This document shows positions 31,301-43,300 of a stretch of DNA of 64,000 nucleotides, piece by piece (positions within the stretch are counted from its first letter, which is position 1; the number at the start of each line of letters is the position of its first letter). The position numbers are program-made. Where the stretch lies: assembly GCA_965637545.1 (NCBI GenBank), contig OZ281495.1:26474001-26538000 (forward strand). The letters are read 5' to 3'. This DNA comes from Phallusia mammillata. Taxonomy: Eukaryota.

Positions 31301-34300
31301 TCTGTACATCACTGGGGTGAATTTCAAATATTGTCCAGTACTGAACTTCATTTTTTCGATATGACGCTTGGATGCTTAACTACATGTTTTGCGAAACAGA
31401 TTCCGCAACGTAATGTTTGAGATCGCTCAAACGGAGGAAGACGTGGGTCGCTTCGATGTCTCAGCCAAGTTCCTTGGAGTTAACATGGAAAAAGTCAACC
31501 TCGTTTTCCAGGTAGGCGATTGGTAAAAACGCTTTAACACGAAACTCCGTTCGACATAATATCGACTCGCATACATTGCAGTTCGCCACACTGCAATAAT
31601 ATATAAAATTAATCTAAAAAAGACCATAAACAAAATCTAAAGTACTTCCCGTTTGGTATTTAGGCAATTTTAGTTTTCTGGTTGTCATTATGCACATTAA
31701 GTCTGATTGTATGCTTAGCCCAATGTAACGTTTTTCGATTTTGCATTTTGATTGGCTTTTAAGCGCTTGTTTGGGACATCGTACTGGTAAAATAAACAAT
31801 GACGGCATCACAGAATATGTTGCAAGATTTTTTCGCCAACAAAGGTTTGTTACAACAGACAGTATAGTCATTCAATATTGCACCTTCGACTTTTATGTAA
31901 GTTTTAACATGGGTACTATTATGTAGTATTGGACGAAATTTCTTCCCAGTGGCTTCCTGAAATCCCTGTTGCCAGTCCAATATCAGTGGATTAAATCGTG
32001 TAATCTTCTTTTACCAGGATTTGCTTCAGCTCCAGTACGAGGGTGTGTCAGTTATGAAGATGTTCGACGGGAGGGCGCGAATCAACGTCAACCTTCTCAT
32101 CTTCTTGCTCAACAAGAAATTCTTTGGGAAGTAAACCCCCCACAACGAGCCCCACACATCAGAACGGGACGATAGCGTCGCTATGAGGGAAATACCCAAA
32201 GTCCCCTTTCATACTGTGACCTATCAGTGTCCATTGAGGTTCGCGTTCGACAAAAACGCATCGATTTTAGCTGTATTCTTTAACTCGCGTTTCTTGCATA
32301 CACTATCCAGGTCTCTGCCGCTTAATATGTATATTATATAAATATATATTGGTATGCATTTAAGTGACTGCATTACCGGGCTGACAGCGTTTTCTACATT
32401 GTACACCACTGCTCATAGCAGGTGATCTTCTACTTGTGCATTGTGATTTTATGCGTCCTTGACTATGGGTGGCGACTTACATAACCTACGCTATAATACT
32501 TGAACTCGCATATATTCCACTTACAAACAACAGCATTTTTTGTGCCATTCCGTACAGTAAATGAATCTGATTTATCATTCCACTAACTTAACACTGCTCC
32601 ATTCCACACCCGAACCAACCTTAATGTACTACAAATATGTATTTTCTCAGTGTAAATGTAGTTGGACTTTTGCTACGCGTTTTTAACATTATTCCCCGGT
32701 AGAGCTATCAGTATGCGTAGAAGGCATCGCGTATTAGACTGGCAGTATTTTAAAACAGCGTTAAACCTTAAATACTTCCAAACGAAATTTGCACGAAATA
32801 CCTGGAGCCTATAAAACACCCCCTTTTTTGCTGTATCAATAAGCACAATTTGTAACATATCAAATTTGCACTGCTACTTGGGATATACACCACAGCGCGA
32901 ACTGCTTTAGCCTTGCAATCATTCTTTGTGTTTTCTTATGTGGCCTAATTTTGTGTAGTGCCCGCGTTATAACTTTAATATCGCTTGTGCCTGGTTGTCG
33001 CTTTTGCATCGTCCCTTTTCTTTTTCCGCGTCTTGTTTTAACTTTGCCTTGACAACGATTCGCGCCGTGTCAGCGCCCCCTATCGCTCAGAGGAATGGGA
33101 ACTCGAAAAACAAACGTTCCCCTAAAAAAAATTGTCAAGAGTGTATGTGGCAGAATAAAAAGGAAGCAGAAAAACAAATCAAAATTAGAAATGCTACAGC
33201 GCATTCATTTCTTTTTTAAATCCGTTCAAACATTTAAGTCTAAAACTAGTCGAGACTGCAAATTAAGCCTTGTTTTTTTAGAAACTTGGTCACACTTTAT
33301 GTCTTCGATGCCGTTTTGGTAGATTAAACAAAATGTTAGAACCGAAATGTTATCAGGATTTTGTATCGACCAGCCGTACATCACCAAAAACACATTATCA
33401 GCCATCAGTTAACCAAGAGGACTTCCCGCTATTCTAAACAGCAGTCTTACTGTAGCATAAAACTTTTTAAGGGGGGCGTAACAGATCCTCCAACAGAATT
33501 GTGCAACATCATTTCCTTGGCATGTGAAAATCAAAAAATTCGTGCCATTTTTACGGATCTGACGTTGTTTACTTGCCAACGTGACTTTAGATCAGTGGCT
33601 TTCATACGTTTGAGGCTTGCGGCACACAAACCTTTTCTTTGCGTGGGACGCTTTGCAGACTAAAACACTGGTTCCATCATTTGGCAGGGATTTAGGCCTT
33701 CGTTATGAGCCTTGATTGCAGAGTCTCAAGCCTTTCGCATAATTAAATGAGCAGTCTCGGGTTTGAGATCAGGTTATAACAGGTTCTTGGGTTTGTTGGC
33801 AAGGTTAATAATACCACACAATTACTAATTCCCGTACTGGCAAAAAAAGTGTGAAACACTACCACGTCCACCGAATTCATGATCTAGCTAGGCCTGTGCT
33901 TAATTGTGCTGTTATGTTTCTCGAAGTTGGTCGACTAAAAAGTCTTATACATCGCGTATTTTGTTGCAAACATTTTAACCATTTGACTTTGTTATGCGGC
34001 CTTTTTAATTCTTACGAATTATACCAGCAACTTCCAAAAAGTTAACTGGATTTGCGATGATTCACAATTCACAAAATCAAATGCAATGCAATCTAAAAAG
34101 CCGATTTGTTTATCTTTTAAGTTCGTTTGCACATTATATGCCCGACTCCAATTAGTAAGATAAAGAAGAGAAAATCACAAATTATCGACAAACTTTTGCA
34201 ACCAACATCCGTCTTCTTGTGCTTGGTTTCTATGAACTTGCCTTTTTTCTATTTCACGTAATCACGTGACAAAGCGCCAGATGTAAATGAATGTTTCTTC

Positions 34301-40300: not shown

Positions 40301-43300
40301 CAGGTTACCACAATAACACGAACAGACAAAAGCACGTGACATGACGTACCACGGTTTATTCGTTCTCTGGGTGAAGATGATGGAGGCTAAACGTAAGTTT
40401 ATAACAGCACACACTCCTATTTCTGTTTAACAATAGCTTTGTTCAGTACAAAGTAGATGAAGCAAACAGTAAAATATTTCTATGTAGGTTTCCATTTTTT
40501 CATTGTAGTTTTCCATTTAGTTTTGATAAACGGCAATTTAAATTTCGTTGGACTAACTGGTTTGTTTTGTGCAGGCGAATCGGATTTTCCTGCTGTTGGG
40601 ACCTTAGTACGTCTACATCGACACTGAAAACACCCACCCCAAAAGCTTCAAGGTACGAACTACCAAAAATAATTCTGCGCAATCTTTTTCCCAAGTTGAA
40701 AGCCAGCATGCAGTTCAAACGATTAGCCGTTTTGCAGTTTCTTCTTTTTTTTTGCTTATCTGATACAACTTTGGCTGCAAAACGATTCCTTAAAAAACTG
40801 CATCGTCAAGGGCCATACAATCTTCTTAACAAAACAGTTGTCTAACACAACTATCACACCGAAGTCGTTTAAAAGTGTTTAATCACATAAACCCCAGCTG
40901 GCTGTAATACAACAGTGTAACAAAACGTTGGCATTTTCTAATTTTCTTCTCTGTTTCAGATTCTTCATATCCATCAACTCGCCTTCAAGTCTCCGTCCCG
41001 TTATCATCTACAAAAATACGGGATGTCAGTTATTGGTAGGAGGCTGCTGCGTTATAGTCAACATTGAATGCGAGATTTTCACCTATAGGCCCATAACTCT
41101 ATGCTAACTTGCGCTGGGCCTCCATTCGTCATGGTCAGGTCCAGCGGATTGGAGGCCCACGTCATTTTTGTTTTTTTTGGTGCTACAAATTAAGTCGCAA
41201 TTAAGTTTATATGTAGTTGTAGCACCGATAACTAGGGGTAAGAATAGTTAGGCTGGGGCATTTTTGGGTTAGCGCGCCGCATTCCCCCTTAGTTATGGGT
41301 TTAGTTAGGCGCGGCGCGTTAAACTTTAGCGTTAAAACCTAGGGATAGAAACACGTCGCCCTCACCCACCCAGGCCCGCTGGGGGTCGATTCCACCGGAG
41401 TTTGATCCCCAGGAGTCAAAATTCCACCGGAGACTGGTACCGGTGCAGGCGGCCTCAGTCTCCCCTCATTTTTGGGCTGGAGAGGAAAGGTTCGCGAGCA
41501 CGCCGGCTAAAAATACCGTAAGGATGTTTTCAATTCCCCCCTAAAACTGTCTGAATTTGGGAGGGTCCGTCTTTGATGATGTCTTTTTCTGACCCTCTTT
41601 GATGATGATGTTGTTTGTCACAGTGTCCTAAATTTGTTTGCGGTCGCCTTTTTACACGTGGCACTTTCTCTGTCTTCCCTTGTCGTTATAAGCTTGAGCG
41701 CATTTTAACTGAGGGATTGTCGCTTGTTGTTGCACTGTTCCGTCGGTGCCGTGCATCTGTATTGGCTGAACGACCCACTCGCAGTTTATTCTTCCCTATG
41801 AATACCCTGGACTGCGGCTGGATTGCGATGTCATGCAGGTGCACACAATGTTCTTCGGTTGTTGTGGCAAAGCCTGCCACCCAGCGGATCTTGCAGCTCG
41901 TGTATTTTTCCACAGGTACTTTTATTTGCAGGTACATTTTTCCACAGGTTTTGTTCGTTTTTTATTCCATATGCTGTCTGCATATGTTATATTTTATTAT
42001 TAATATTATATTATATTATTACCTAACTACCCAAATCTCGCATTCCTTGTTGACTCGGTCGGATAAACCCATCTAAAAGCTCTGTTTGTTTCATAACTTT
42101 GCTTTTCGTGAGGTTTAAACTGCCAGGCGCGGCAGCCTCACATTTTACTTTTATAGGCTGCTGTTGAGAAGTCCAATAGATAGCGAGCTCAGAAGCTGTT
42201 TTTTCCTTGTTTTTGTTTGTGATCTAGTTGCGGCGGCATTATAGGGGCGCGCAGGACGATGGCGGTTCCACAAGTATGTTTGTGAGTTAGACTTAATAAC
42301 GTTAGGTGCAAATAGCACTGAAGAAGATGAACAACCAATCGTGTACGATTTGATAGGAGATCAACCAATCGCGTACCAGATGAACGAAGAACAATTTTAT
42401 AACTTAATTGAACACACGAGTGGCTTAAGCTTACTTTTATTTGACCACAACTAACCATTGGTGGTTACAGTTGTCCACGACTACATTTTAGTGGCAACAT
42501 GGTTACACAGGATTCAAAATAAAGTGACCTATAGGATGCTTTTGTGACTACAACTAACCATTGGTGGTATGGGGGAAATTGATATTACTGTTGTCCACGA
42601 CTAAATTTTAGTGGCAACTCGGTTTAGCTAAGATAAACGAACTACAACATTTACTCTGACAACAACTAACCATTGGTGGTTGCTTTTGCGAAAATGATAT
42701 TTTAGTTGTCCACGACTAAATTTTAGTGGCAACTTTATTTAGCAATCTTGAAAACAACATGAACGTTTTCTGTGACCACAACTAAACTTTGGTGGTTACT
42801 TTGAAACCTTTACTTAGTTGTCCACGAAAAACTTCTGGTGGCAACTTGGTTTAGCAGGTTTAAAAATAAAGTAACCGAAGTAATATTTCCATGACCATAC
42901 CTAAATATTGGTGGTTATTTCATGCAAAATGACATTTTAATTGTCCACGACTAAATTTTAGTGACAACATACTGAACTGAAGTTAACAAACTAACCATCC
43001 TTTATTTATCACAGGAAACCAGCTTGTTTGAACTTTTACGCAGTTTAATATGCTGCTTGAAATAAGTAGTTTAGTATACTACTTGGATTTTGAACCTAAA
43101 AGTAGTTTAATATACTACTTTGAAATTAGAACCAAAACAACAAGGTAGTTTGATATACTACCAGAAAATTAGAACCTGACTATTATAAAATTGTTTGTTT
43201 ATTGTGTAAAATCTTTCTAGGTTTAATTTGTTGTGTAATACACGTCGCGGTATAGGCGTTAACTCTTCCTTCCTTATTTGCTAAAAGTTGTTTAAAATTG

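What the first reader, a model, noticed from the sequence alone, without database searches (positions are those of the whole stretch)
34300..41160. Cryptic 9-exon non-coding host-like gene with a TCT/5'TOP start
Seen: nine exon-like blocks with canonical splice signals and no long ORF, so the ORF track misses it. It starts at a pyrimidine initiator just downstream of an E-box. Established: TCT/5'TOP starts plus many short non-coding exons typify snoRNA host genes (GAS5/SNHG type), whose products are intronic RNAs. Inference: a host lncRNA whose payload may be the paralogous modules in introns 2 and 3 and the repeated mini-hairpins in intron 4. I found no canonical C/D or H/ACA snoRNA by eye, so the payload may be non-standard.
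Basis: partly seen in the sequence, partly recalled or inferred. Interest (0 to 1): 0.7.

Follow-up and report, generated by a model that had tools for sequence, protein, structure and literature searches.

The report
Probable spliced non-coding gene, no snoRNAs
This stretch looks like an ordinary multi-exon non-coding RNA gene whose introns hold duplicated promoter-like DNA modules, and nothing in it supports the idea that it hosts snoRNAs.

Summary
Eight GT donors and eight AG acceptors bound nine blocks on the + strand. Seven of the nine blocks have stops in all three frames.

Its score is 29.4 against 10.4 +/- 4.8 in simulations, and 1 of 300 simulations reaches it. All nine blocks are richer in G+C than their flanks, mean +0.12 against -0.015 for 153 pseudo-exons.

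The snoRNA-host reading is not supported:
- Rfam gives 0 matches at gathering score and only two chance-level hits at E<=10.
- Strict and relaxed C/D scans give 0 candidates.
- H/ACA scans give 0 and 1 candidate, against about 1 expected.

The intron 2/3 modules do not fold better than shuffles. Their conserved islands are E-box, CRE-like, C/EBP-like and CCAAT motifs, 83% identical in the core against 55% in the flanks. That pattern fits promoters or enhancers. The mini-hairpins are a palindromic 12-mer inside decayed tandem units.

Transcription, the start at 34300 and the 3' end remain untested. There is no AATAAA or ATTAAA before 42518.

The parts
34255..34269 (.). ACGT-core pair upstream of E1: CACGTAAT followed by the palindromic E-box TCACGTGA (34262-34269), 31 nt before 34300.
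   Evidence: TCACGTGA occurs 7 times in the window against 0.69 expected.
34294..34306 (+). 13-nt pyrimidine run holding a YYCTTTYY (TCT-type) match with C at 34300. This is the putative start and is untested.
   Evidence: It is one of 15 runs of at least 12 pyrimidines and one of 32 motif matches on the + strand, so it is weak on its own.
34300..34363 (+). Putative exon 1 (64 nt), donor AAG|GTAGGT.
   Evidence: Donor 9.9 bits, 99.8th percentile. G+C 0.48. The chain search starts here.
34880..35141 (+). Putative exon 2 (262 nt).
   Evidence: Acceptor 8.3, donor 7.7. Stops in all 3 frames.
35296..35860 (.). Module copy A in intron 2, with conserved core 35646-35783. The core holds the motifs TTGCGCAAT, CACGTG, TGACGTAACGA, GTATGCGCAGGGCAGTCACGTGA, CCAATCATCTGAT and TATTTGCTCAC.
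   Evidence: No fold signal, z +0.35.
36170..36279 (+). Putative exon 3 (110 nt).
   Evidence: Acceptor 9.3, donor 11.0. Stops in all 3 frames.
36689..37220 (.). Module copy B in intron 3, with conserved core 37013-37141.
   Evidence: 64% identity over 582 nt to copy A. Core 107 of 129 identical against flanks 225 of 408, Fisher p 6.5e-9. Fold z -0.85.
37558..38063 (+). Putative exon 4 (506 nt), the weakest of the nine.
   Evidence: Acceptor 5.8, donor 5.2, both about the 94th percentile. Stops in all frames. The internal 78-nt hairpin is not significant, z -1.4.
38739..39399 (+). Decayed tandem units of about 100-130 nt in intron 4. Each keeps a short palindrome (CAGCGACGGCTG type), often followed by TGACG(T/A)AA.
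39556..39657 (+). Putative exon 5 (102 nt).
   Evidence: Acceptor 9.5, donor 9.6. G+C 0.56. Stops in all frames.
39865..39973 (+). Putative exon 6 (109 nt).
   Evidence: Acceptor 10.8, donor 5.0. Stops in all frames.
40304..40392 (+). Putative exon 7 (89 nt).
   Evidence: Acceptor 11.7, donor 7.5. Stops in all frames.
40575..40652 (+). Putative exon 8 (78 nt).
   Evidence: Acceptor 10.6, donor 7.8. One frame is open.
40960..41237 (+). Putative exon 9. A donor GGG|GTAAGA after 41237 could carry the transcript further.
   Evidence: Acceptor 10.5. Alternative donor 8.5 bits. No AATAAA or ATTAAA before 42518.
41111..41162 (+). Role unknown.
   Evidence: -31.4 kcal/mol, z -4.0, 1 of 200 shuffles folds as well.
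33335..33603 (+). Context only: a frame-shifted fragment of the LDLa/7TM receptor gene that lies intact on the - strand at 50940-55862.
   Evidence: blastn 68% over 288 nt. tblastx pieces fall in two different frames. Pfam on the intact gene.

Best explanation
The region most likely holds a spliced, multi-exon long non-coding RNA gene on the + strand. It lies between the 3' end of an IQGAP-like gene and a repeat-rich spacer. It is not a snoRNA host.

The conserved elements in its introns act as DNA, not as RNA.
- The two paralogous modules are an old local duplication.
- Their 130-nt core has been kept as a row of binding-site-like islands. In 5' to 3' order these are C/EBP-like TTGCGCAAT, E-box CACGTG, CRE/PAR-bZIP-like TGACGTAAC, a CLEAR-type TCACGTGA, a CCAAT box and a forkhead-like TATTTGC.
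- The same pair, ACGTAA(Y) then TCACGTGAC-AAA, sits just upstream of exon 1.

My inferred mechanism is as follows. bHLH-Zip factors (MiT/TFE, USF or Myc/Max type) and bZIP factors drive transcription from the exon-1 promoter. The two intronic modules serve as alternative internal promoters or as enhancers of the same unit. The intron-4 array adds more bZIP-like sites.

Shown here: the splice-signal chain, the compositional exon/intron contrast, the absence of coding capacity, the absence of snoRNA or other Rfam signatures, and the unequal conservation within the duplicated modules. Inferred: transcription itself, the start site, which factors bind, and any function of the RNA.
For: **Exon chain.**
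- Score 29.4 against 10.4 +/- 4.8 simulated; 1 of 300 simulations reaches it.
- The - strand of the region scores 6.4, and the antisense strand of IQGAP scores 4-15.
- Strong acceptor-donor pairs cluster here: 6 of 16 in 128 kb.
- G+C contrast is +0.05 to +0.19 in 9 of 9 blocks. Pseudo-exons average -0.015 (n=153).
- In the IQGAP span, chain exons with an open frame average about +0.10 and those without about +0.01. I averaged these by hand from the values printed.
- The + strand has a T excess at 34-42 kb, AT skew -0.05 to -0.125, as over the + strand IQGAP gene.

**Non-coding.**
- Searches show stops in all frames of 7 of 9 exons.
- Pfam finds nothing at its gathering cut-off. That covers 8 ORFs of at least 70 aa in the region, 2 neighbouring ORFs (2 sub-threshold hits, E 0.03 and 0.16), and 10 exon pieces, which gave 0 hits.
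- PDB sequences at E<=1: 0 hits for 4 pieces.
- tblastx of 33000-43000 against the window gives no exon match.

**Modules.**
- Core 107 of 129 identical against flanks 225 of 408, p 6.5e-9.
- An exact 23-mer occurs twice against 0 expected.
- There is no fold signal.
- TTGCGCAA occurs 3 times in the window, all within the finding. CACGTG occurs 6 times within it out of 16 in the window.
- TCACGTGA is the palindromic CLEAR-box bound by MITF/TFE factors (PMC10539308, passages read).
Against: - No RNA evidence of any kind could be consulted. No eukaryotic genome or transcript collection is on hand.
- The splice matrix is generic and recalled. Its chain search has poor specificity in the control: 10 of 29 picked exons in the IQGAP span have an open frame.
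- E4 and the E6 donor are weak.
- No canonical poly(A) signal lies within 1.3 kb of E9, so the 3' end is undefined.
- The TCT match is common.
- The motif names other than CLEAR-box are recalled consensus sequences, not tests of binding. With only two copies, conservation of the core could partly reflect gene conversion rather than selection.
- The similarity of the exon-1 upstream region to the modules is weak.
Confidence: 0.55

Rival explanations
1. It is a GAS5/SNHG-type snoRNA host gene. The spliced RNA is a disposable carrier that starts at a TCT/5'TOP initiator, and the products are intron-encoded snoRNAs, possibly non-standard ones.
For: - Many short non-coding exons.
- A TCT-type pyrimidine run at the putative start.
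- 5'TOP/TCT initiation is typical of translation-associated genes, including snoRNA host genes (PMC6954239, abstract and passages read).
Against: - 0 Rfam matches at gathering score, and only two chance hits at E<=10.
- 0 C/D candidates with a strict or a relaxed C box.
- H/ACA scans at chance level.
- The conserved intronic elements have no fold signal.
- The TCT motif occurs 32 times on the + strand.
- Limits of these tests: my scans are crude, guide complementarity to rRNA was not tested because no rRNA of this species was on hand, and Rfam may lack lineage-specific snoRNAs.
Confidence: 0.07
2. There is no gene. The nine blocks are G+C-richer islands in T-rich intergenic DNA, for example eroded fragments of older sequence. 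They happen to be flanked by AG and GT, and the modules are a stand-alone duplicated enhancer of a neighbouring gene.
For: - The chain search picks many false exons in the control.
- 1 of 300 simulations reaches the observed score.
- There is no poly(A) signal.
- A decayed receptor fragment next door shows that this spacer collects gene debris.
Against: - Two independent signals coincide on the same nine blocks: splice-site strength and G+C contrast, the latter reached by 0 of 20000 resamples.
- Both signals are strand-specific.
Confidence: 0.25
3. The blocks are the untranslated exons, or the decayed remains, of a protein-coding gene. That gene could be a unitary pseudogene, or one whose coding part lies elsewhere.
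For: - A frame-shifted receptor fragment lies 700 nt upstream on the same strand.
- A donor after 41237 could lead further downstream.
Against: - No tblastx match of any exon to the intact receptor or to anything else in the window.
- No Pfam or PDB match, searched exon by exon.
- The + strand chain score falls to background (10.3) at 43.8-51.1 kb.
- No ORF of at least 75 aa with protein character lies at 41-50.9 kb.
A family without a Pfam model would therefore be missed.
Confidence: 0.1

Closest known systems
Non-coding snoRNA host genes (GAS5, UHG/SNHG1 type)
   Same: Many short exons without a reading frame, and a pyrimidine-run motif at the putative start. The link between 5'TOP/TCT starts and host genes is from PMC6954239.
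   Different: No snoRNA of either class was detected in any intron. The conserved intronic parts behave as DNA motif clusters, not as folded RNAs.
Ordinary multi-exon intergenic lncRNA loci of animals
   Same: Canonical GT-AG introns, exons richer in G+C than introns, no coding capacity, and a position downstream of a protein-coding gene.
   Different: Nothing that I could test sets it apart. Transcription is unverified and the 3' end lacks a canonical poly(A) signal.
CLEAR-box / E-box plus CRE plus CCAAT promoter-proximal modules (MiT/TFE, USF or Myc, CREB/ATF, NF-Y type)
   Same: The palindromic TCACGTGA is present in both modules and upstream of exon 1. It is named the CLEAR-box in PMC10539308. 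TGACGTAA, CACGTG, TTGCGCAA and CCAATCA lie in the same 130 nt.
   Different: Binding, open chromatin and initiation are untested. Apart from the CLEAR-box, the factor assignments are recalled consensus sequences. Here the module is duplicated inside two consecutive introns.

Membership tests
snoRNA host gene (GAS5/SNHG type) | One or more box C/D or H/ACA snoRNAs encoded in the introns | tested here: not met
   Rfam 15 gives 0 at gathering score and only 2 chance hits at E<=10. C/D scans give 0 and 0. H/ACA scans give 0 and 1, against 0-3 in simulations. rRNA complementarity was not tested.
snoRNA host gene (GAS5/SNHG type) | Spliced multi-exon host transcript | tested here: inconclusive
   Sequence signals are present and above chance. 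No RNA data were available.
snoRNA host gene (GAS5/SNHG type) | Host RNA without a conserved long ORF (for the non-coding subclass) | tested here: met
   Stops in all frames in 7 of 9 exons, and at most 78 codons across any single junction. The spliced sequence itself was not assembled.
snoRNA host gene (GAS5/SNHG type) | Transcription starts at a C within an oligopyrimidine tract (5'TOP/TCT) | not testable with these tools
   A motif match lies at 34300 within a 13-nt pyrimidine run, but there are 32 such matches on the + strand. It needs CAGE.
snoRNA host gene (GAS5/SNHG type) | Host RNA turned over by nonsense-mediated decay | not testable with these tools
   Needs an experiment.
Multi-exon long non-coding RNA | Transcript longer than 200 nt, spliced at canonical sites | tested here: inconclusive
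   The nine exons sum to 1521 nt with 8 GT-AG introns of 182-1492 nt. Transcription is unverified.
Multi-exon long non-coding RNA | No protein-coding capacity or protein homology | tested here: met
Decayed protein-coding pseudogene | Translated similarity of the exons to a protein family or to a paralogue | tested here: not met
   tblastx against the window, Pfam and PDB give none for the exons. Only the separate fragment at 33335-33603 matches the receptor.
miRNA host gene | Stable hairpin of about 60-80 nt, well beyond shuffled controls, or an Rfam miRNA match | tested here: not met
   The best hairpin inside the unit (37831-37908) has z -1.4. There is no Rfam match. The only significant hairpin lies at the 3' border.
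Cis-regulatory module (promoter or enhancer) | Dense cluster of factor-type motifs conserved above the surrounding sequence | tested here: met
   Core 83% against flanks 55% between the two copies, p 6.5e-9. The motif islands are listed.
Cis-regulatory module (promoter or enhancer) | Factor binding, open chromatin or initiation at the site | not testable with these tools
   Needs ATAC/ChIP/CAGE or reporter assays.

The most novel reading that the evidence does not exclude
The most novel reading still open is a lncRNA locus built around three paralogous promoters, with the 'payload' being DNA-level switches rather than intronic RNAs. Each promoter pairs a CLEAR-type TCACGTGA with an ACGTAA(Y) bZIP site. 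One sits at exon 1 and two are kept under selection inside introns 2 and 3. The first promoter would start at a TOP-type pyrimidine tract. Together these would make a nutrient- or stress-sensing non-coding gene, combining a TOP start with MiT/TFE and ATF-C/EBP inputs. The intron-4 array would add further bZIP sites.
Probability: 0.12. Interest if true: 0.45.

Novelty: new member of a known kind. Interest (0 to 1): 0.3.

Why it matters
If it is transcribed, this is one more intergenic lncRNA in an invertebrate-type genome. That helps annotation but would not surprise a specialist.

The part worth a second look is the pair of intronic modules. An old duplication has decayed to about 55% identity in the flanks, yet a 130-nt row of E-box, CRE, C/EBP and CCAAT-type motifs stays at 83%, including an exact 23-mer. 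That is a clean natural experiment pointing to a functional regulatory element. A reporter assay could test it directly.

Showing that the snoRNA-host idea fails also keeps this locus out of snoRNA-host gene lists.

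Tried and rejected
**snoRNA payload.** Rejected on Rfam at two thresholds, strict and relaxed C/D scans, and strict and relaxed H/ACA scans. tRNA genes: 0 in the window.

**Structured-RNA reading of the modules and mini-hairpins.** Fold z-scores run from +0.35 to -2.2. miRNA-type hairpins: the best internal one is not significant.

**Coding or pseudogene reading of the exons.**
- tblastx against the window.
- Pfam on 10 ORFs and on 10 exon pieces.
- PDB sequences for 4 pieces.
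- All were negative for the exons.

**E3 and E4 as paralogous exons of a 1.37-kb tandem unit.** Sensitive blastn finds similarity only for 35296-35860 against 36689-37220.

**A third full module copy upstream of E1.** The alignment is weak beyond the ACGT-core pair.

**Alternative first exons after the modules.** Only weak, non-conserved donors of 4.5-6.9 bits.

**Tandem Repeats Finder on the intron-4 array.** Nothing at score >=30. The units appear only with sensitive blastn.

**The bacterial-type promoter/terminator scan.** Uninformative: 28 found against 21.9 expected, and 6 against 6.7.

**The module 23-mer in bacterial and archaeal genomes.** 0 matches. This was expected and says nothing about eukaryotes.

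**A coding gene further downstream.** Chain score at background and no protein-like ORF at 41-50.9 kb.

Full report
**Setting.** The window is A+T-rich eukaryotic DNA: G+C about 0.32-0.42 per 2 kb, no N, and CpG observed/expected 0.92. It carries compact, intron-rich genes, and I do not take it for human.

- An IQGAP-like gene runs on the + strand from about 5.1 kb. Pfam finds the CH domain, and RasGAP_C in two exons. Its last coding exon ends at 32134, and an AATAAA lies at 33154.
- A receptor gene with LDLa and 7tm_1 domains lies on the - strand at 50940-55862.
- Between them, 33335-33603 holds a frame-shifted fragment of that receptor on the + strand.
- The finding follows at 34.3-41.2 kb.
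- After it comes a repeat-rich spacer.

- I scored sites with a generic donor/acceptor matrix whose numbers are recalled and approximate. 13 of the 16 sites rank at or above the 98th percentile of all GT and AG sites in the window. The two borders of E4 and the E6 donor rank at about the 94th.
It adds one optional exon (35376-35705) and a continuation from a donor after 41237 to an acceptor at 41932.
- The chain score is 29.4. Simulations give 10.4 +/- 4.8, and 1 of 300 reaches it. The - strand of the region scores 6.4. Tiles over the + strand IQGAP gene score 17.5-28.6.
- Composition gives an independent signal. Exon G+C is 0.40-0.56 against 0.31-0.38 for introns. The G+C contrast with the flanks is positive in 9 of 9 blocks, mean +0.124. 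For 153 pseudo-exons with comparable site scores the mean is -0.015. None of 20000 resamples reaches the observed mean.

**A control against my own method.** In the IQGAP span only 10 of the 29 internal exons picked by the chain search have an open frame. The chain score alone is therefore not proof. In that control the open-frame exons have a G+C contrast of about +0.10 and the others about +0.01. I averaged these by hand from the values one search printed. The finding's blocks resemble the former group.

**Coding capacity.**
- Seven of nine exons have stops in all three frames. The longest stop-free piece is 67 codons. No frame can cross a single junction for more than 78 codons, whatever the phase.
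- Exon pieces have no Pfam match: 10 pieces, 0 families. They have no PDB match: 4 pieces, 0 at E<=1.
- ORFs of at least 70 aa in and beside the region have no match at Pfam's cut-offs.
- tblastx of 33000-43000 against the whole window matches only the receptor fragment, the two modules and the downstream tandem repeats.

**The host-gene idea.** The class is defined by snoRNAs in the introns, and I found none.
- Rfam 15 gives 0 matches at gathering score in the window. At E<=10 on 33800-41500 it gives two chance-level hits.
- A C/D scan (C box, D box, terminal stem) gives 0 on both strands. With a relaxed C box it gives 0 against 0.24 expected.
- H/ACA scans give 0, then 1 candidate ending in ATA, against 0-3 in ten simulations.
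- These scans are crude. Complementarity to rRNA was not tested, so a very unusual snoRNA cannot be excluded.
- The TCT/TOP link to host genes is real in the literature (PMC6954239, abstract and passages). Here, however, the motif YYCTTTYY occurs 32 times on the + strand.

**What the intronic elements are: the modules.**
- The modules are an old duplication: 35296-35860 against 36689-37220, 64% over 582 nt.
- Identity is 107 of 129 in the core (35646-35783 / 37013-37141) and 225 of 408 in the flanks, Fisher p 6.5e-9.
- The conserved islands are TTGCGCAAT, CACGTG, TGACGTAACGA, the exact 23-mer GTATGCGCAGGGCAGTCACGTGA, CCAATCATCTGAT and TATTTGCTCAC.
- Neither copy folds better than shuffles.
- TCACGTGA is the palindromic CLEAR-box of MITF/TFE factors (PMC10539308, passages). 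The other factor names I attach (C/EBP, CRE/PAR-bZIP, NF-Y, forkhead) are recalled consensus sequences.
- TCACGTGA occurs 7 times in the window against 0.69 expected. One copy lies 31 nt upstream of 34300, preceded by ACGTAAT.
- I read the modules as promoter- or enhancer-type DNA. Whether they start transcripts is open, because donors downstream of them are weak and not conserved.

**What the intronic elements are: the mini-hairpins.**
- The mini-hairpins are a 12-mer palindrome, exact in 3 copies and with 2 mismatches in 2 more.
- They sit inside decayed tandem units of about 100-130 nt.
- The stems are 4-5 bp and the fold signal is weak.
- Several copies are followed by TGACG(T/A)AA.

**Open ends.**
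- The 3' end is undefined. There is no AATAAA or ATTAAA from 40600 to 42517.
- A strong stem-loop with T runs sits at 41111-41180, z -4.0.
- A good donor follows 41237.
- Beyond about 43.8 kb the + strand chain score is at background.

**What stayed unchecked.**
- Supplements of the two papers were not seen.
- The one scan of bacterial and archaeal genomes with the 23-mer found nothing.

**Verdict.** This is probably a real, ordinary, spliced non-coding gene (about 0.55). It is not a snoRNA host. The duplicated regulatory module in its introns is worth a reporter test.

Noticed in passing
33335-33603 (+): A frame-shifted fragment of the LDLa/7TM receptor gene, which lies intact on the - strand at 50940-55862. 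It is 68% identical over 288 nt to 52168-52452 (reverse complement), and the two tblastx pieces fall in different frames.
   Followed up: partly
41111-41180 (+): A strong stem-loop (-31.4 kcal/mol, z -4.0, 1 of 200 shuffles folds as well), followed by T5 and T8 runs. It has no Rfam match, and its role is unknown.
   Followed up: partly
42419-43056: A tandem array of units of about 115 nt at 67-69% identity, seen in self-blastn and tblastx.
   Followed up: no
43354-44380 and 45633-46683; 44447-44623 and 46824-47003: A direct duplication of about 1.05 kb at 86%, with a second piece at 82%, inside the repeat-rich spacer.
   Followed up: no
49443-50206: Tandem units of about 190 nt at 80-90% identity, just downstream of the 3' end of the - strand receptor gene.
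   Followed up: no
22037-22065 and 57164-57186: Further TCACGTGA sites directly beside TGACGTCA or TGACGTAA sites. These could be other promoter- or enhancer-like clusters of the same motif pair, one inside the IQGAP-like gene and one at 57 kb.
   Followed up: no
41200-41560: A G+C-rich segment (up to 0.62) with internal inverted repeats and strong local folds. It looks like a mobile-element fragment and starts right after exon 9.
   Followed up: no
51101-62050 (+): The + strand splice-chain score is 21-23 here although the receptor gene is on the - strand. There may be another + strand unit near 56-62 kb, or this may reflect the method's low specificity.
   Followed up: no
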